Assembly: GCA_031413715.1 (NCBI GenBank)
Contig: JANOFO010000009.1
Span: forward strand, 94,866-158,865
Direction of reading: 5' to 3'
DNA from: Minisyncoccota bacterium
Lineage (GTDB): Bacteria; Patescibacteriota; Minisyncoccia; Phycocordibacterales; UBA9973
Length of the DNA stretch: 64,000 nt
Under the pieces are notes generated by a model that was given only the letters and a program-made list of their open reading frames with translations, had not been told where the DNA came from and did not search any database. The translations under genes and the position numbers were made by a program. How positions within the stretch are numbered: position 1 is the first letter of the stretch; the number at the start of each line of letters is the position of its first letter. Positions 10,385 to 31,488 of the stretch are shown in pieces.

Positions 10385-10476
10385 TTCCTTCCCTCCTTAC
10401 TAAGGAGGGAATTGAAGGGAGGTTCTTAATTAGGAACCCCTCCTCAATCCTCCCCTTATCAAGGAGAGGAGGAACT
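10385..10476. repeat. Intergenic triple-hairpin repeat element, copy A.
   Basis: It starts directly after a stop codon: TTCCTTCCCTCCTTACTAAGGAGGGAATTGAAGGGAGGTTCTTAATTAGGAACCCCTCC...CCTCCCCTTATCAAGGAGAGG. A near-identical copy (B) lies at 16994..17084. The three stem-loops could act as a bidirectional terminator between convergent genes. Confidence 0.7.
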
Positions 10477-13635: not shown

Positions 13636-14199
13636 CTATTCTTTCCAAAGATTTATTTCTTTGATAAAATTAATAACATTTTTTGATAGTCTAACAACAT
13701 ATTTTGTTTTTTCCTTATGAATGACCTTTCTTATTTGAGGTTTGTATCCTAATTTATGCAAACTTTCAAAATAGATGAATGCTAGTTTTTCAATAATCGT
13801 TGTAAAATTTATCATTAGATACCCTCGATCTTTATAAATCGAGCCGTCTGTCTGAGTTAATCCTCGAAGACATTCTTTTGTATATATCTTGTTGTTTAAA
13901 ATCCATAAAGGTATTGAAACATTCTGCCTAAATTTTGATCCACCTTTTGCTTTCCACCCAAGAAGTTCTTCAAGCATATTTGAATGAACATACACATCAA
14001 CACAGCCCTTTCTTTTTATTTCTGAAACTTTATTTTTCGGTAATAGGAGTTGCAATGATTTCTTAATGTGATCTTTCAAAATAGGATATTTATTATCACA
14101 GCTAATGCGAAGTTTAACCGCACGACCATTCGAATTCGATAGATTACCATCTCCAATTGCTACACCTACTATATATGCTAAAAGCTTCTTATTTTTCAA
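13636..14199 (-). CDS. LAGLIDADG-family homing endonuclease-like protein (two motifs, monomeric type). It may use a TTG start.
   Basis: Motif 1 is LLAYIVGVAIGDGNL and motif 2 is LRGLTQTDGSIY. The protein is 187 aa and basic or K-rich. Its 5' end lies 2 nt from the 3' end of tRNA-Leu on the same strand. Confidence 0.7.
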   Translation of the reverse strand: MKNKKLLAYIVGVAIGDGNLSNSNGRAVKLRISCDNKYPILKDHIKKSLQLLLPKNKVSEIKRKGCVDVYVHSNMLEELLGWKAKGGSKFRQNVSIPLWILNNKIYTKECLRGLTQTDGSIYKDRGYLMINFTTIIEKLAFIYFESLHKLGYKPQIRKVIHKEKTKYVVRLSKNVINFIKEINLWKE

Positions 14200-14200
14200 G

Positions 14201-14282
14201 TGCCAGGGGAGGGACTCGAACCCTCAAGTCTTGCGACGATCGATTTTGAGTCGATTACGGTTACCAATTTCGCCACCCTGGC
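14201..14282 (-). tRNA. tRNA-Leu (anticodon CAA).
   Basis: The reverse-complement is GCCAGGGTGGCGAAATTGGTAACCGTAATCGACTCAAAATCGATCGTCGCAAGACTTGAGGGTTCGAGTCCCTCCCCTGGCA. It has a 7-bp acceptor stem, anticodon loop CTCAAAA, a long variable arm and a GTTCGAGTC T-loop. Confidence 0.9.
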
Positions 14283-16993: not shown

Positions 16994-17084
16994 TTCCTTC
17001 CCTCCTTACTAAGGAGGGAACTGAAGGGAGGTTCCTAATTAAGAACCTCTCCCAACCCTCTCCTTGTAAAGGAGAGGGAAACCC
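16994..17084. repeat. Intergenic triple-hairpin repeat element, copy B.
   Basis: It is near-identical to copy A (10385..10476) and again begins at a stop codon. Stem 3 carries a compensatory substitution (CCTCTCCTT/AAGGAGAGG). Confidence 0.7.
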
Positions 17085-28200: not shown

Positions 28201-31200
28201 ATGGGAATGAAAAAATACGATCATACAAAAATCGAAAAGAAGTGGCAAAAGGAATGGGACAAAGAAAAGCTTTACAAAGTTGAAGATAGTGTTACAGGCA
28301 AAGAGAATTTCTATCAGCTTGTTGAATTCACGTATCCATCTGGCAATCTCCACGTAGGGCACTGGTACGCTTTTGCAGTTCCAGATATTTTTGCTCGTTA
28401 TAAACGCATGCAAGGGTTCAACGTACTTTACCCGATGGGCTTTGACGCATTTGGATTACCTGCTGAAAATGCAGCTATTAAAGAGAACGCAGATCCGAAA
28501 GTTTGGACTTATGAAAAAATGAATGCGATGCGGATCCAGCTTAAATCAATGGGTGCGATATTTGATTGGGATCGTGAGATCGTGTCATGCGATCCACAAT
28601 ACTACAAATGGACGCAATGGATGTTCAATAAATTTTTAGAGCATGATTTAGTTTACCGTGATATTACAAAAGTAAACTGGTGTCCCAAAGACCAGACTAT
28701 TCTTGCCAACGAACAAGTTGTCGATGGGCATTGTGAACGCTGCGGTGCGGAAGTAGAGCAAAGGAATCAAGAGCAATGGATGCTCCGCATTACCAAATAT
28801 GCCGACCGGCTTATCGATGACCTCGATGCACTAAATTGGCCAGAAGAAATCAAAGCGGCTCAAAAAAACTGGATTGGCAGAAGCGAAGGAAGCGAAATTG
28901 AATTTCATATACGACAGAGCCCATCCCCGACCCTTCCCAAAGGGAAGGGAGAAATACCTGGTTATATGACTTCAAATGATGAAATTTATGAAACTGTTCA
29001 AGAGAGAGCAGTAGAAATGCGAAAAGCTCCGACTAAAGCAGAGGAAATTTTGTGGGATTCATTAAGAGGGAACAAAATTGGTTATCACATAAGGAGACAG
29101 CATGTAATCGATAGATTTGTTGTGGACTTTGCTTGCTTAAAAGAAAATCTTGTTATTGAGATAGATGGTGATATTCACGACTTACAGAAAGAAAAAGACG
29201 AGGAAAGAACAAATATTCTTAAAAACCTAGGGTTTAGGGTTATTCGGTTTAAAAATGACGAAGTAATAAAAAATTTAGATGGAGTAATAAATAAAATCTT
29301 AAATGAGTTAAAGAACCCTTCCCTTGGGGAAGGGCAGGGATGGGCTTCATCTGAAATAATAAAAGTATTTACGACGCGAGCGGATACTCTATTTGGTGTG
29401 ACATATATTGTCCTTGCTCCAGAACATGAGCTAGTAGAAAGTTTAAAATCTAAAGTCGAAAGTGAAGAAAATAGAAAACAAATTGAAAAATATATTTCAG
29501 ATACGAAGAAAAAATCCGAACTTGACCGCAAGCAGCAGAAAGAAAAAACTGGGGTAGAACTCAAAGGAGTAAAGGCGGTAAATCCTGCAAATGGTGAAGA
29601 AGTGCCGATCTGGGTGGCGGACTACGTGCTTGCAGGTTACGGAACAGGAGCGATCATGGCTGTACCGGCTCATGACGAGCGGGATTTTGAATTTGCTAAG
29701 AAATACAATTTGCCGATCAAGAGAGTTGTGGAGCAAAAATTCATAGCGACTGATAGTCCTATGCATTCTGAACTTGAAATTCCCGCTACATATAGAAATG
29801 CCATTTGTGCAATAATTCGTAATCCCAAAGATGATACATATCTCTGCAGCGTCTGGAAAGATATTCATTGCCACGGATTGATAACAGGCGGAGTGGAAGA
29901 GGATGAAGATATTGTTGAAGGAGCCTTGCGTGAGATATATGAAGAAACTGGATATAAAAATTTAAAATTTATAAGGAATCCTGATATAGCAATTCATACT
30001 TTTTTTTATCATCGTAAAAAAGAAGTAAATAGATGGGCCCGATTTCAATATCTCTTTTTTGATCTGATAGACGAAGTTCAGGACTCTATCGACGAGAATG
30101 AATTCGCAATACATGATGTTGTATGGAAATCTAAAGACGAACTCAATGATTTCTTTTCTGTTGTAGAAGGAGAGTTTTCTCTTACATTAATAGAAAATAA
30201 TGGAGACTATGTATATACAGGTGAAGGTATTCTCGGGAATTCTGGGAGATTTAATGGCATGGATTCAGAAGAAGCCCGCACAAAGATTACCGAAGCAGTC
30301 GGAGGGAAAATGGTAAAAACATATAGATTGCGCGATTGGGGGATTTCGCGCCAGCGGTATTGGGGTACGCCGATCCCTATCGTCTATGATCCCCAAGGGA
30401 AAGCCCATCCTGTGCCGGACGAGCATTTGCCGTGGATTTTACCTGATGATGTTGATCACAAGCCGTCAGGTGTGGCACCGCTTGCTAAAAGCAAGGAACT
30501 CTTTATGCGAACCGAGAAAATTTTTGGTGAAGGTTGGAAGCCAGAAGTGGAGACGATGGATACGTTTGTGGATTCTTCATGGTATTTCTACAGATATCTT
30601 GATAATAAAAATAGTAAAACATTTGCTGATAAAAAACACCGAGACGCATGGATGCCGATTGATCTTTATATGGGTGGTGCTGAGCATACTACTATGCATT
30701 TACTGTATTCACGTTTTTGGGTGAAAGCCATGCATGATCTAGAAATGGTGAAAGAAATAGAAAGCTATAAAGTGCGTCGCAATCGTGGGCTTATCTTGGG
30801 ACCTGACGGCAATAAAATGTCGAAATCCAAAGGCAATGTTGTTAATCCAGATGAGATTGTCGAGAGGTTAGGCGCTGACACTGTGCGTATGTATCTGGCT
30901 TTCATGGGGCCATACGGAGTTACGGTCAATTATCCATGGGATCCAAATGGAGTGGTGGGCGTACGACGGTTTCTTGAGCGGGTCTGGAAGTTGAAAGACA
31001 AGTTGAAAGAGAATAAAGAAGGCACTTCTTTCTTTATTGAGAAATCCACTCATCTGGCAATAAAAAATATAACTGAATATATGGAAAGTTATAAGTTTAA
31101 TACAGCAGTCTCGCAAATGATGATTCTTTTAAATTATTTAGAAAAACAAGATGTTACTATCGAGATTTATAAAACATTGTTGCAGCTTCTTTCGCCATTT

Positions 31201-31488
31201 GCTCCGCACATGACCGAAGAGCTCTGGCGAGATCTTGGTGAAAAGAAATCTATACACCTAACACCATGGCCGACATGGGATAAAGATAAGATTATTGATA
31301 CTGTGTTTAAAATCGTAGTCCAAGTGAATGGTAAGGTCCGCACCCAATTTGAAGTAGAAAGCAGTATGAGCGAAGAAGATATCAAGATTAAAGTCTTGGC
31401 AGATCAAGCCATACGATCATGGACAGAAGGCAAGGAAATAAAACGCGTCATATATGTAAAAGATAGACTTGTTAACATTGTCGTCTAG
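28201..31488 (+). CDS. leuS: Leucyl-tRNA synthetase carrying two inserted accessory domains, DUF559 (Vsr-like endonuclease fold) and NUDIX.
   Basis: The HIGH motif is HVGH and the KMSKS motif is KMSKSKGN. LeuS-specific segments include YPMGFDAFGLPAEN, AVPAHDERDFEFAKKYNLPI and YRLRDWGISRQRYWGTPIP. The protein is 1095 aa against about 860 typical. Insert 1 (about residues 243-380) matches DUF559 (T-AEEILWDSLRG...RRQ...DFAC...IEIDGDIH...DEERT..L...GFRVIRF-NDEV). Insert 2 (about residues 520-665) has a full Nudix box, GGVEEDEDIVEGALREIYEETGY. Confidence 0.9.
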   Translation: MGMKKYDHTKIEKKWQKEWDKEKLYKVEDSVTGKENFYQLVEFTYPSGNLHVGHWYAFAVPDIFARYKRMQGFNVLYPMGFDAFGLPAENAAIKENADPKVWTYEKMNAMRIQLKSMGAIFDWDREIVSCDPQYYKWTQWMFNKFLEHDLVYRDITKVNWCPKDQTILANEQVVDGHCERCGAEVEQRNQEQWMLRITKYADRLIDDLDALNWPEEIKAAQKNWIGRSEGSEIEFHIRQSPSPTLPKGKGEIPGYMTSNDEIYETVQERAVEMRKAPTKAEEILWDSLRGNKIGYHIRRQHVIDRFVVDFACLKENLVIEIDGDIHDLQKEKDEERTNILKNLGFRVIRFKNDEVIKNLDGVINKILNELKNPSLGEGQGWASSEIIKVFTTRADTLFGVTYIVLAPEHELVESLKSKVESEENRKQIEKYISDTKKKSELDRKQQKEKTGVELKGVKAVNPANGEEVPIWVADYVLAGYGTGAIMAVPAHDERDFEFAKKYNLPIKRVVEQKFIATDSPMHSELEIPATYRNAICAIIRNPKDDTYLCSVWKDIHCHGLITGGVEEDEDIVEGALREIYEETGYKNLKFIRNPDIAIHTFFYHRKKEVNRWARFQYLFFDLIDEVQDSIDENEFAIHDVVWKSKDELNDFFSVVEGEFSLTLIENNGDYVYTGEGILGNSGRFNGMDSEEARTKITEAVGGKMVKTYRLRDWGISRQRYWGTPIPIVYDPQGKAHPVPDEHLPWILPDDVDHKPSGVAPLAKSKELFMRTEKIFGEGWKPEVETMDTFVDSSWYFYRYLDNKNSKTFADKKHRDAWMPIDLYMGGAEHTTMHLLYSRFWVKAMHDLEMVKEIESYKVRRNRGLILGPDGNKMSKSKGNVVNPDEIVERLGADTVRMYLAFMGPYGVTVNYPWDPNGVVGVRRFLERVWKLKDKLKENKEGTSFFIEKSTHLAIKNITEYMESYKFNTAVSQMMILLNYLEKQDVTIEIYKTLLQLLSPFAPHMTEELWRDLGEKKSIHLTPWPTWDKDKIIDTVFKIVVQVNGKVRTQFEVESSMSEEDIKIKVLADQAIRSWTEGKEIKRVIYVKDRLVNIVV

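What the first reader, a model, noticed from the sequence alone, without database searches (positions are those of the whole stretch)
28918..30196. LeuS carries two in-frame accessory domain insertions: a DUF559/Vsr-like endonuclease module flanked by palindromic near-repeats, and a NUDIX hydrolase
Insert 1 (about nt 28927..29340) matches the DUF559 consensus almost residue for residue (AEEILWDSLRG, RRQ, DFAC, IEIDGDIH, DEERT, GFRVIRFKNDEV). It interrupts LeuS exactly between the NWIGRSEG segment and the start of the editing (CP1) domain. Both of its boundaries are marked by 19-nt hairpin-capable near-repeats, CCCTTCCCAAAGGGAAGGG (28931..28949) and CCCTTCCCTTGGGGAAGGG (29316..29334). These encode similar peptides, PTLPKGKGE and NPSLGEGQG. 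That is the signature expected of a mobile module that inserted in-frame with terminal repeats, comparable to Rickettsia palindromic elements but carrying a nuclease-fold domain. It is not an intein: there is no Cys/Ser at position +1 and no terminal HN. Insert 2 (about nt 29758..30196) is a complete NUDIX domain with a canonical Nudix box (GGVEEDEDIVEGALREIYEETGY). It sits between the conserved [20 protein letters not shown] segment and YRLRDWGISRQRYWG. Aminoacyl-tRNA synthetases make Ap4A and related dinucleotides as side products, and a built-in Nudix (Ap4A hydrolase-like) domain would be a novel coupling.
Basis: partly seen in the sequence, partly recalled or inferred. Interest (0 to 1): 0.72.

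Follow-up and report, generated by a model that had tools for sequence, protein, structure and literature searches.

The report
Nuclease-carrying selfish insert inside LeuS
A leucyl-tRNA synthetase gene of a tiny "candidate phyla" bacterium carries, in frame, a hairpin-ended selfish DNA element encoding a DUF559 nuclease plus a separate Nudix hydrolase domain; the nuclease element belongs to a widespread family, absent from the papers searched, that sits inside many unrelated essential proteins.

Summary
ORF 28201-31488 is a bacterial LeuS of 1095 aa with two extra, well-folded domains.

Insert 1 (28918-29346, exactly 143 codons) is a DUF559 (Vsr-like) nuclease. It is bracketed by 31-nt GC-rich inverted repeats, and each repeat holds its own 8-bp hairpin. 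The closest syntenic relative has a clean empty site.

The same module, with the same kind of ends, lies in frame inside many unrelated host proteins (LeuS, IleS, AlaS, Tgt, MetH, Acs, RecJ, PaaZ, SpoIIE phosphatases and others) in Patescibacteria, Bacteroidota and Ignavibacteriota. Element similarity does not track host similarity. The nuclease residues are conserved. The repeat-encoded Pro/Gly peptides are predicted to be disordered linkers. Short nuclease-less pairs and solo hairpins also exist.

Best reading: a selfish, non-splicing, in-frame mobile element. It is not an intein.

Insert 2 (about 29767-30210) is a Nudix domain with an intact catalytic box, common but patchy in this LeuS clade. 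Related Nudix domains sit at three different positions in other LeuS. Its substrate, including the Ap4A idea, is unresolved.

The same LeuS hinge is a hot spot for other inserted domains. I found no literature describing either feature.

The parts
28201..31488 (+). leuS, 1095 aa, bacterial-type leucyl-tRNA synthetase. HIGH motif (HVGH) at 28351-28362, KMSKS at 30814-30828.
   Evidence: ORF. TIGR00396 at 914 bits, cutoff 548. Aligned to LeuRS structures 1h3n and 3zgz. AF2 full-length model mean pLDDT 86.
28918..29346 (+). Whole in-frame DUF559 element: 429 nt, 143 codons, aa 240-382. It has no start or stop codon of its own.
   Evidence: Delimited by the inverted repeats. Empty site in the syntenic relative L124: EIDFKIKDTSESIKVFTTR versus EIEFHIRQ[143 aa]SSEIIKVFTTR, same host length.
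28918..28950 (.). Left terminal inverted repeat AGCCCATCCCCGACCCTTCCCAAAGGGAAGGG, with its own hairpin at 28931-28949. It encodes SPSPTLPKGKG.
   Evidence: The first 33-34 nt are identical in an unrelated host gene (PaaZ-like, L002). aa 242-255 have pLDDT below 50, a predicted disordered linker.
28996..29310 (+). DUF559 (Vsr-like PD-(D/E)xK) nuclease domain, aa 266-370.
   Evidence: PF04480 at 113 bits, cutoff 20.6. Best solved relative is 3hrl. All family-invariant residues are present: E42, W46, R59, Q61, H62, D70, E81, D83, G84, H87, D94, R97, R110 in element numbering. Folded in the AF2 model.
29316..29346 (.). Right terminal inverted repeat CCCTTCCCTTGGGGAAGGGCAGGGATGGGCT, with its own hairpin at 29316-29334. 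It encodes PSLGEGQGWA.
   Evidence: As a single strand the two ends pair into a terminal duplex of about 29 bp (MFE z-score -5.8). aa 374-382 have pLDDT below 50.
29350..29742 (+). LeuS CP1 editing domain core, aa 384-514.
   Evidence: PF13603, E 3e-60. Aligns to T. thermophilus LeuRS residues 243-374.
29767..30210 (+). Nudix insertion in the distal part of CP1, aa ~523-670. Pfam domain at 29791-30144.
   Evidence: Gap against T. thermophilus LeuRS between residues 374 and 376. PF00293 at 49 bits, cutoff 21. AF2 model of the segment has pLDDT 95. Foldseek hits to Nudix hydrolases with TM 0.6-0.7.
29887..29955 (+). Nudix box GGVEEDEDIVEGALREIYEETGY.
   Evidence: Read from the sequence. G, E, E and G are invariant and R and E nearly invariant across 31 LeuS-borne Nudix domains.

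Best explanation
The gene is a working LeuS of a Patescibacteria (Paceibacteria/Nomurabacteria-like) organism. Two foreign domains have been inserted into surface regions around its CP1 editing domain.

Insert 1 is a selfish DNA element.
- Two ~31-nt GC-rich inverted repeats, each holding its own hairpin, bracket a DUF559 nuclease reading frame with no start or stop codon. The nuclease is made only as part of the host protein.
- The repeats, read in frame, encode flexible Pro/Gly linkers (xPxPxLPxGxG ... LPxGEGxG). The nuclease domain therefore hangs off a tolerant loop and LeuS keeps working.
- Shown: the anatomy, the empty site, occurrence in many unrelated hosts across phyla, the lack of correlation between element and host relatedness, conservation of the nuclease residues, and conservation of hairpin potential through compensatory changes.
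- Inferred: the nuclease drives spread. It could cut empty alleles (homing-like copying, which would explain recurrence at the same site of orthologous genes). It could also act on the hairpin or cruciform ends (which would explain jumps to new genes and the short nuclease-less derivatives).

Insert 2 is a Nudix pyrophosphohydrolase domain, probably catalytically competent, and a frequent but dispensable accessory of this LeuS clade. Relatives of the same Nudix lineage sit at three different positions in different LeuS, which argues that physical linkage to LeuS is selected. The substrate is unknown; dinucleoside polyphosphates or other nucleotide by-products are candidates.
For: Anatomy
-.

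Empty site
- The nearest, syntenic relative has a clean empty site with no target duplication and the same host length.

Other LeuS
- Only 8 of the 120 closest LeuS carry the module.

Unrelated hosts
- Of the 150 best representatives, 52 have at least 40 aa of host on both sides. 74 Pfam families co-occur in 93 hosts.
- In-frame copies occur in MetH, PaaZ, IleS and Bacteroidota LeuS, including the isolate Nonlabens antarcticus.
- 56 of the 80 best metagenomic relatives are embedded in frame at both junctions, including 49 of the best 50. The more distant ones are free-standing DUF559 genes.

Decoupling from host
- The window's element is 65% identical to one in a LeuS that is 55% identical over its N-terminal part, and 60% identical to one in a SpoIIE phosphatase. 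It is only 57% identical to the one in a 75%-identical LeuS.
- Cross-host pairs reach 70-75% identity, against a same-host median of 54%.

Ends
- The left end is identical over 33-34 nt in a PaaZ gene whose element is only 52% identical in protein.
- About 50 of 55 elements have GC-rich hairpins at each end, with 21 distinct stems and changes on both sides in 6 of 8 pairs.
- The same motif occurs as solo hairpins and as short repeat-spacer-repeat pairs in at least 120 genome loci, only about 12 of them next to DUF559.

Nuclease residues
- Invariant.

Linkers
- The only LeuS segments with pLDDT below 50 are aa 242-255 and 374-382.

Nudix
- for identity and fold. Three positions. Distribution.
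Against: - No activity was or could be tested. That the DUF559 nuclease mobilises the element is inference.
- No target-site duplication and no recognisable transposase chemistry. A PD-(D/E)xK nuclease alone cannot perform strand transfer.
- No nearly identical copies in different genes were found; the best cross-host pair is 75% in protein. Recent jumps are therefore not demonstrated.
- Only one copy lies in the 64-kb window.
- The covariation count is partly circular, because I selected the best hairpin at each end.
- Element identities span a narrow range (45-65%), so decoupling from host phylogeny is suggestive rather than a formal reconciliation.
- Some DUF559 fusions, for example to Type ISP and N6-methylase proteins, could be functional fusions rather than parasites.
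- For the Nudix domain, presence is patchy even between LeuS genes 97% identical in core. It is therefore not essential to LeuS function.
Confidence: 0.68

Rival explanations
1. The hairpin repeats are the real mobile unit, a REP/MITE-like family moved in trans by some other enzyme or by recombination between repeats. DUF559 is only passenger cargo that was captured between two repeats and does not drive mobility.
For: About 110 of 120 genome loci with the repeat motif have no DUF559 nearby. Many are solo hairpins behind stop codons or short repeat-spacer-repeat pairs. A solo end is nested inside another element. An a/b-hydrolase sits between the left linker and the DUF559 domain in P0207, so other cargo can lie inside the repeats. 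Repeated right ends occur in tandem.
Against: Nuclease residues are invariant in embedded copies, which implies selection on the nuclease itself. The embedded type forms a subfamily distinct from free-standing DUF559 genes. In the best 80 metagenomic relatives the module with both linkers is nearly always intragenic. That pattern fits an element that depends on host expression of its own protein.
Confidence: 0.2
2. The DUF559 domain is a domesticated, functional accessory domain of LeuS, for example for nucleic-acid binding or tRNA processing, rather than a parasite.
For: It is folded, in frame and under purifying selection. Within one LeuS subclade the element and the host co-diverge: P0179, P0187, P0218 and P0239 show 69-84% element identity against 65-87% host identity. 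The same LeuS site hosts other enzymatic domains.
Against: The same module with the same DNA ends sits in PaaZ, MetH, Tgt, Acs, RecJ, iPGM, AlaS, IleS and SpoIIE proteins. It is absent from the four closest LeuS relatives. The ends are conserved at the nucleotide level and also occur in non-coding DNA.
Confidence: 0.07
3. The insert is removed before the mature enzyme is made, either by protein splicing (an intein-like element) or at the RNA level. In the RNA version the long terminal duplex would be cut and the ends religated, or the insert would be an unknown intron.
For: The first residue of the element is Ser in several copies. As a single strand the two ends form a duplex of about 29 bp that brings the two junctions together (z = -5.8).
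Against: Pfam finds no Hint or intein domain, and the element ends in GWA rather than HN (sequence). The 143 aa are almost filled by the 105-aa nuclease domain. No Rfam intron or other family matches, even at E <= 1. All 56 embedded copies keep the frame open across both junctions; under RNA excision only about one third would.
Confidence: 0.04
4. One reading: the Nudix domain is an Ap4A (dinucleoside polyphosphate) hydrolase that clears the side product of the synthetase.
For: The Nudix box is intact. Ap4A hydrolases (human NUDT2, Chlamydia CT771, Aquifex aq_158, T. thermophilus Ndx1) and RppH are among the top structural matches. Related Nudix domains recur at three LeuS positions, which suggests selected linkage. 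Another LeuS combines Ham1, Nudix and HAD domains, all enzymes that act on nucleotides.
Against: NTP pyrophosphatases (NudI) and generic MutT proteins score equally well or better, and sequence hits to any characterised Nudix protein are weak (E about 0.005). LeuS alleles without the domain are common among close relatives. No free-standing Nudix gene lies next to leuS in two Nudix-less relatives.
Confidence: 0.2

Closest known systems
Rickettsia palindromic elements (RPEs; Ogata et al. 2000, as summarised in PMC10969869)
   Same: Palindromic selfish DNA inserted in frame into unrelated, often essential, protein-coding genes. The insert is translated and tolerated at surface positions and is not removed.
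   Different: RPEs are about 100-150 bp, encode only a short peptide and no enzyme, and are confined to Rickettsia. This element is 390-500 bp, encodes a complete conserved nuclease domain, has GC-rich hairpin ends that double as linker codons, and is spread over at least three phyla. Sequence homology to RPEs was not tested.
Inteins carrying homing endonucleases
   Same: A nuclease gene living in frame inside conserved host proteins, without its own expression signals. It recurs at the same site of orthologous genes, and empty alleles exist in close relatives.
   Different: There is no Hint splicing domain and no terminal His-Asn. The insert appears to stay in the mature protein, tethered by flexible linkers. 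It has terminal inverted repeats at the DNA level, which inteins lack.
Vsr-like (EDxHD) homing endonucleases such as I-Bth0305I (PMC3239194; PMC2677866); grouped with Vsr and DUF559 in PMC3424549
   Same: The same PD-(D/E)xK/Vsr-like nuclease clade is used by a mobile element that targets conserved genes.
   Different: Those enzymes sit in group I introns or next to split inteins, so the host protein is restored by splicing. Here there is no splicing element. Direct sequence similarity to I-Bth0305I was not detected in the PDB search; only 3hrl matched.
MITEs and REP elements, and palindromic coding repeats (PARCELs, PMC2996958)
   Same: Short inverted-repeat or hairpin DNA found in many copies, including nuclease-less repeat-spacer-repeat pairs and solo hairpins that look like terminators.
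   Different: No target-site duplication, no DDE or HUH/RAYT transposase partner, and the protein-coding form is translated as part of the host protein.
Accessory domains in aminoacyl-tRNA synthetases (for example NCBIfam NF040702, IleS with a GNAT domain, seen); stand-alone Ap4A hydrolases (Nudix NUDT2/RppH, YqeK: PMC13627108)
   Same: A catalytic add-on domain fused to a class Ia synthetase. The Nudix fold and box are the same as in Np4N and NTP pyrophosphatases.
   Different: The domain is inserted inside the CP1 editing domain rather than appended. It is patchy among close relatives, occurs at three alternative positions, and its substrate is unknown. I found no paper describing a Nudix-bearing LeuS.

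Membership tests
Bacterial leucyl-tRNA synthetase (TIGR00396) | Equivalog HMM above its cutoff; HIGH and KMSKS motifs; CP1 editing domain | tested here: met
   914 bits against a cutoff of 548. HVGH at aa 51-54 and KMSKS at aa 872-876, read from the sequence. PF13603, E 3e-60.
DUF559 (PF04480) | Pfam HMM above the gathering score | tested here: met
   113.3 bits against 20.6, covering profile positions 3-108 of 109.
DUF559 (PF04480) | Conserved putative catalytic and structural residues (RRQH, DF, ExDG..H, D..R, RF.N) | tested here: met
   All columns that are invariant in 93 hosts and in 18 modules are present in the window's copy.
DUF559 (PF04480) | Nuclease activity | not testable with these tools
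   Needs biochemistry.
Vsr very-short-patch repair endonuclease proper (PF03852) | Match to the Vsr family model | tested here: not met
   At E <= 0.01 only PF04480 and a sub-threshold PF18741 match; there is no PF03852 hit.
Intein | Hint domain with splicing blocks | tested here: not met
   No Hint or intein family in the Pfam scan. The 143 aa are almost filled by the 105-aa nuclease domain.
Intein | C-terminal His-Asn followed by Cys, Ser or Thr | tested here: not met
   The element ends in ...GQGWA. Other copies end in GGA, GGV or GWA.
Self-splicing intron or other known RNA element | Match to an Rfam covariance model | tested here: not met
   Only tRNAs at gathering threshold in the window. 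Nothing credible at E <= 1 in 28700-30400.
Transposon / MITE | Terminal inverted repeats | tested here: met
   31-nt inverted repeats. The same architecture recurs in other copies with co-varying outer and inner segments.
Transposon / MITE | Target-site duplication | tested here: not met
   Occupied and empty sites differ by exactly the 429 nt, with no duplicated flank. None is seen in other copies.
Transposon / MITE | Known transposase (DDE, HUH/Y1, serine or tyrosine recombinase) | tested here: not met
   The only domain between the repeats is DUF559.
Homing-endonuclease element | Same insertion site in orthologous genes of different lineages, with empty alleles in close relatives | tested here: met
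   The LeuS hinge site is occupied in Patescibacteria and in other phyla, and the nearest relative has it empty. Recurrent sites are also seen in Tgt, MetH, IleS, Acs and SpoIIE proteins.
Homing-endonuclease element | Nuclease cleaves the empty target site | not testable with these tools
   Needs biochemistry.
Rickettsia palindromic elements | Short (~100-150 bp) palindromic in-frame insert with no enzyme | tested here: not met
   In-frame and palindromic, but 429 nt and carrying a complete nuclease domain.
Nudix hydrolase (PF00293) | Pfam HMM above cutoff, Nudix box GX5EX7REUXEEXGU, Nudix fold | tested here: met
   49.2 bits against 21.1. The box residues are invariant or nearly so in 31 homologues. 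AF2 pLDDT 95, and Foldseek TM 0.6-0.7 to many Nudix structures.
Ap4A / Np4N hydrolase subfamily of Nudix | Specific similarity to characterised Ap4A hydrolases beyond the generic fold | tested here: inconclusive
   Ap4A hydrolases, RppH, NudI and MutT-type proteins all match at similar scores. An aromatic residue lies about 17 positions after the box, and a Tyr near there is said to mark ApnA hydrolases (own recollection, not checked).

The most novel reading that the evidence does not exclude
The DUF559 module defines a class of bacterial mobile element absent from the papers searched: a nuclease gene without expression signals that lives permanently in frame inside essential host proteins. 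It would be an 'intein lifestyle without splicing'. Its GC-rich hairpin inverted repeats would serve twice: as the DNA-level ends recognised or cut by its own Vsr-like nuclease, and, when translated, as the flexible linkers that make the insertion harmless. The recurrent single T.G wobble in the end hairpins could be relevant to recognition, given that Vsr enzymes cut at T:G mismatches. This would give the large orphan family DUF559 a biological role. It would also point to a natural mechanism that delivers whole folded domains into proteins, possibly related to the hot spot of inserted enzymes in Patescibacteria LeuS.
Probability: 0.4. Interest if true: 0.9.

Novelty: new variant of a known kind. 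Interest (0 to 1): 0.8.

Why it matters
**A role for DUF559.** DUF559 is a very large family with no assigned function: 22,424 cluster representatives match this module at E <= 1e-3. Part of the family behaves as the cargo, and perhaps the engine, of an in-frame selfish element. That gives a concrete, testable role.

**A third way to live inside an essential gene.** Introns are spliced from RNA and inteins from protein. This element would instead stay in the protein on flexible linkers encoded by its own terminal repeats.

**Annotation.** Synthetases and other core enzymes with these inserts are currently labelled generically, for example 'class I tRNA ligase family protein'.

**Protein evolution and engineering.** The elements mark naturally validated permissive insertion sites in LeuS, IleS, AlaS, Tgt, MetH, Acs and RecJ, together with a natural linker design.

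**Translation and nucleotide housekeeping.** The Nudix, Ham1, HAD, ASCH and hydrolase insertions in Patescibacteria LeuS hint at an unexplored link between the two in organisms with minimal genomes.

Tried and rejected
- **Intein or intron.** Rejected: no Hint domain, no terminal HN, no Rfam match, and the frame is open across both junctions in 56 of 56 embedded copies.
- **Assembly artefact.** Rejected: the identical protein comes from two independent sources and there are dozens of independent occurrences.
- **Hairpins merely as linker-coding sequence.** Rejected: the same nucleotides occur in non-coding DNA, and compensatory changes include synonymous Leu codon changes (CTT to CTC) paired with AAG to GAG.
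- **Viral vector.** A scan of IMG/VR with the module alignment found no relative.
- **Locus search with the 18-sequence alignment.** It failed for lack of a conserved stretch. A 5-sequence alignment worked.
- **Neighbour-joining tree of 120 LeuS cores.** It was star-like and could not time the gains and losses of Nudix or DUF559. Nearest-neighbour identities were used instead.
- **Automatic detection of the outermost repeat boundary.** It often locked onto the inner hairpins, so no target-site logo could be derived. Upstream flanks look A/T-rich, but this is not established.
- **GC content.** Both inserts have lower GC3 (0.24-0.25) than the LeuS core (0.40). No inference about recent foreign origin of either insert was drawn from this.
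- **Neighbourhood of Nudix-less LeuS.** There is no adjacent free-standing Nudix gene.
- **Literature.** Eight searches found nothing on in-frame DUF559 elements or on Nudix-bearing LeuS.
Full report
**1. What is in the window**

ORF 28201-31488 (+) encodes a 1095-aa protein. It scores 914 bits on the bacterial LeuS equivalog TIGR00396, cutoff 548. Pfam finds the class I catalytic core, the LeuS editing domain (aa 384-514) and the anticodon-binding domain. It also finds two extra domains: DUF559 at aa 266-370 (E 6e-33) and NUDIX at aa 531-648 (E 7e-13).

Against T. thermophilus LeuRS (1h3n), query residues 3-237, 387-522 and 671-882 align to residues 1-236, 243-374 and 376-594. Both extra segments are therefore true insertions. 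One lies at the start of the linker into CP1, the other in the distal part of CP1. The HIGH (HVGH) and KMSKS motifs are intact.

The identical protein is recorded from an NCBI genome and from an independent Logan assembly.

A full-length AlphaFold2 model built on 65 homologues has mean pLDDT 86. Both extra domains are confidently folded. The only segments below pLDDT 50 are aa 242-255 and 374-382, the two edges of insert 1.

**2. Insert 1 is a discrete element with inverted-repeat ends**

The pattern occurs twice in the window against 0 in 100 shuffles.
- They are the inner parts of 31-nt inverted repeats, 28918-28948 and 29316-29346: AGCCCATCCC-CGA-CCCTTCCC... and ...GGGAAGGG-CA-GGGATGGGCT.
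- These repeats delimit 429 nt, exactly 143 codons, starting on a codon boundary (aa 240-382).
- Folded as a single strand, the two ends pair into a terminal duplex of about 29 bp (MFE -123.9 kcal/mol, z = -5.8).
- The nearest relative is P0122, in a syntenic contig (YchF, pterin dehydratase, Sua5, LeuS, TPR protein). It reads EIDFKIKDTSESIKVFTTR where the window reads EIEFHIRQ[143 aa]SSEIIKVFTTR. This is a clean empty site of the same host length with no target duplication.
- Among the 120 closest LeuS, only eight carry the module.

**3. The same element sits in many unrelated proteins**

An exhaustive profile-free search of 1.84 billion cluster representatives with the 143-aa element gave 22,424 hits at E <= 1e-3. 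Among the best 150:
- 52 have the module embedded with at least 40 aa of host protein on both sides.
- 44 have host sequence on one side.
- 53 are short.

Across 93 host-bearing proteins, 74 different Pfam families co-occur. They include LeuS, Type ISP restriction enzymes, SpoIIE phosphatases, MetH, glycosyltransferases and Tgt.

The boundary peptides recur: xPxPxLPxGxG(E) followed by PGY.T.D on the left, and LPxGEGxGG(A/V) on the right.

At the DNA level, the left end in a PaaZ-like gene from a lake metagenome is identical to the window's over the first 33-34 nt. The encoded nuclease there is only 52% identical.

They are mostly Flavobacteriales, Chitinophagaceae and Ignavibacteriota, plus two Patescibacteria and one Burkholderiales MAG. 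Where DUF559 adjoins the motif, it is in frame inside:
- MetH;
- PaaZ;
- IleS;
- Bacteroidota LeuS at a different site, including the cultured Nonlabens antarcticus JCM 14068;
- LeuS at the window's own site.

Among the 80 best metagenomic relatives, 56 are embedded in frame across both junctions, including 49 of the best 50. Their hosts are about 30 LeuS, plus Acs, Tgt, SpoIIE, iPGM, RecJ, HsdM and AlaS. The more distant hits are ordinary free-standing DUF559 genes that lack the right linker.

**4. Evidence that it moves**

Element similarity does not follow host similarity:

| Locus | Host protein | Host N-terminal identity | Element identity to window |
|---|---|---|---|
| L126 | LeuS | 55% | 65% |
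| L133 | SpoIIE phosphatase | unrelated | 60% |
| L138, L141 | Tgt | unrelated | 56% |
| L130 | LeuS | 75% | 57% |

Cross-host pairs reach 70-75% identity (Tgt versus LeuS, Acs versus RecJ). The median for elements in the same host family is 54%.

Within one LeuS subclade the element and host do co-diverge. Vertical inheritance after insertion therefore also occurs.

Elements are themselves targets of insertion. A solo left end is nested in the DUF559 of L003. An a/b-hydrolase lies between the left linker and the nuclease in P0207. Right ends are tandemly repeated in L166 and L127.

**5. The ends act as nucleic-acid signals**

- About 50 of 55 elements have a GC-rich 7-8-bp hairpin with a 3-nt loop at each end, inside otherwise AT-rich genes.
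- There are 21 different stems, for example CCCTTCCC/GGGAAGGG, CCCTCCCC/GGGGAGGG, CCCCTTCC/GGAAGGGG, CCCTTTCC/GGAAAGGG and CCCTCTCC/GGAGAGGG.
- On 44 distinct hairpins, 6 of 8 pairs show changes on both sides. There are 34 such cells against 6.6 +/- 2.4 in shuffles.
- This count is inflated, because I picked the best hairpin at each end. The presence of a hairpin at nearly every end is the non-circular evidence.
- Some compensations pair a synonymous Leu codon change (CTT to CTC) with Lys to Glu (AAG to GAG). That is hard to explain by protein selection.
- The outer repeat segments co-vary too: CCCATCCC/GGGATGGG, CCCCACCC/GGGTGGGG, CCCCTCCC/GGGAGGGG.
- The same motif is abundant without any nuclease. 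It occurs as solo hairpins directly after stop codons and followed by T runs (terminator-like), and as repeat-spacer-repeat pairs of about 95-110 nt that look like deletion derivatives.

**6. The nuclease**

The domain matches DUF559 end to end. Its best solved relative is the Neisseria 'endonuclease-like protein' 3hrl. A survey of the PD-(D/E)xK superfamily groups DUF559 with Vsr and with the group I intron homing endonuclease I-Bth0305I (PMC3424549; PMC3239194).

The residues invariant over 93 hosts (E, W, R.Q, D, E.DG..H, R, R) are all present in the window's copy. That implies selection on the nuclease.

Activity and target cannot be tested here. Right-end hairpins usually contain one T.G wobble on the coding strand. 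Vsr enzymes act at T:G mismatches (my own knowledge), so this is a lead, not a result.

**7. Why the insert is not spliced out**

- Pfam finds no Hint domain, and the element ends in GWA rather than HN.
- Rfam finds nothing, even at E <= 1.
- Every embedded copy keeps the frame open into the downstream host sequence.
- The repeat-encoded peptides are the only disordered parts of the LeuS model.

The simplest reading is that the domain remains in the mature enzyme, looped out on Pro/Gly linkers.

**8. Insert 2, the Nudix domain**

A model of aa 512-675 built on 31 homologues has pLDDT 95 and a Nudix fold. Foldseek finds hundreds of Nudix hydrolases at TM 0.6-0.7. NudI-type NTPases, RppH and Ap4A hydrolases all rank near the top. 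Sequence similarity to any characterised member is weak.

The box residues G, E, E and G are invariant, and R and E nearly so.

Roughly 70-80 of the 120 closest LeuS carry a Nudix domain at this site, but carriers and non-carriers are interleaved.

P0169 comes from a complete 808-kb genome and lacks the domain. P0133 has it. The two are 97% identical over core columns. At the DNA level the two genes are mosaic: 0-2 differences per 100 nt at the gene ends, and 25-46 per 100 nt around the site. This indicates replacement of the central segment by recombination rather than a precise cassette insertion or deletion.

Nudix domains of the same lineage also sit at two other positions:
- at the hinge site in P0151, P0157 and P0203 (60-64% identical to the CP1-site Nudix of P0142) and in P0182;
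- before the WPExIK motif in P0053.

Repeated relocation suggests that linkage to LeuS is selected. The substrate is open, and the Ap4A idea remains a reasonable but untested candidate.

**9. A hot spot**

The hinge site that holds the DUF559 element in the window holds other domains in other Patescibacteria LeuS:
- an ASCH domain (P0150);
- an a/b-hydrolase (P0129);
- a Ham1-type domain (P0204, which also carries Nudix and HAD domains);
- a nucleotidyltransferase-like segment (P0227);
- a second Nudix domain.

These other inserts do not show the Pro/Gly linker signature.

**10. Comparison with known systems and novelty**

The closest analogues are:
- Rickettsia palindromic elements, which are in-frame palindromic selfish DNA but short and enzyme-less (PMC10969869);
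- inteins with homing endonucleases, which share the lifestyle but splice;
- Vsr-like homing endonucleases in introns and fractured genes (PMC3239194, PMC2677866);
- MITE and REP repeats.

None of these combines terminal inverted hairpins, an in-frame nuclease domain and permanent residence in the host protein.

Eight literature searches found no description of such DUF559 elements or of Nudix-bearing LeuS. The library does not cover subscription journals, so prior description cannot be excluded.

I rate it a new variant of a known kind (in-frame selfish DNA, homing-type nuclease elements). There is a substantial chance that it deserves to be treated as a class of its own.

Noticed in passing
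P0150, P0129, P0204, P0227, P0157, P0182 (LeuS relatives); corresponds to window ~28915: The LeuS hinge between WIGRSEGxEIxF and VFTTRADT is a hot spot for inserted domains. Different Patescibacteria LeuS carry an ASCH domain, an a/b-hydrolase, a Ham1-type domain, an NTase-like segment or a second Nudix there. P0204 combines Ham1, Nudix and HAD domains in one LeuS.
   Followed up: partly
P0053, P0151, P0157, P0203, P0182 versus P0142, P0150, P0166: Nudix domains of the same lineage occupy three different positions in LeuS, with 52-64% identity across positions. Some LeuS have two Nudix domains.
   Followed up: partly
L206 6001-8451 versus L208 1001-3835: Two leuS genes that are 97% identical in core protein differ by presence or absence of the Nudix domain. 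They are mosaic at the DNA level: nearly identical at the gene ends and 25-46% divergent around the site. This points to allele replacement by recombination.
   Followed up: yes
L003 5221-5258, 6356-6400, 6963-7000: Another Patescibacteria leuS, in a long-read assembly with many frameshifts, carries the element at the same site with a solo left-end copy nested inside the nuclease. It also has two further small GC-rich palindromes within the coding sequence.
   Followed up: no
L005-L123 (for example L019, L024, L036, L043, L048; and L021, L028, L033, L052, L066): The end motif is widespread in Bacteroidota and Ignavibacteriota without any nuclease. It occurs as solo hairpins right after stop codons followed by T runs (terminator-like), and as repeat-spacer-repeat pairs of about 95-110 nt (MITE-like).
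   Followed up: partly
L126-L205 right ends; window 29316-29334: Right-end hairpins typically contain exactly one T.G wobble on the coding strand, and left ends contain the mirrored C.A mismatch. The ends are therefore inverted copies of an asymmetric palindrome. The window's own hairpins are perfect.
   Followed up: partly
window 13636-14199 (-) and 14201-14282 (-): A 187-aa LAGLIDADG-type ORF (PF14528, E 8e-9) directly abuts an 82-nt tRNA gene on the same strand.
   Followed up: no
window 10390-10410, 16999-17019, 17056-17078: GC-rich palindromes lie a few bases after the stop codons of two genes: TCCCTCCTTACTAAGGAGGGA (twice) and CCCTCTCCTTGTAAAGGAGAGGG. They are of the same flavour as the element's hairpins and are probably terminators.
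   Followed up: no
window 28918-29346 and 29767-30210 versus the rest of leuS: Both inserts have much lower third-position GC (0.25 and 0.24) than the LeuS core (0.40). The cause is unclear.
   Followed up: no
L166, L127, L126 (downstream of the right end): Extra copies of the right-end linker or hairpin occur in tandem (for example VLPFGEDLGEVEVLPFGEDLGEVNSLPFGEGMG). Additional small palindrome-coded peptides lie beside the element.
   Followed up: no
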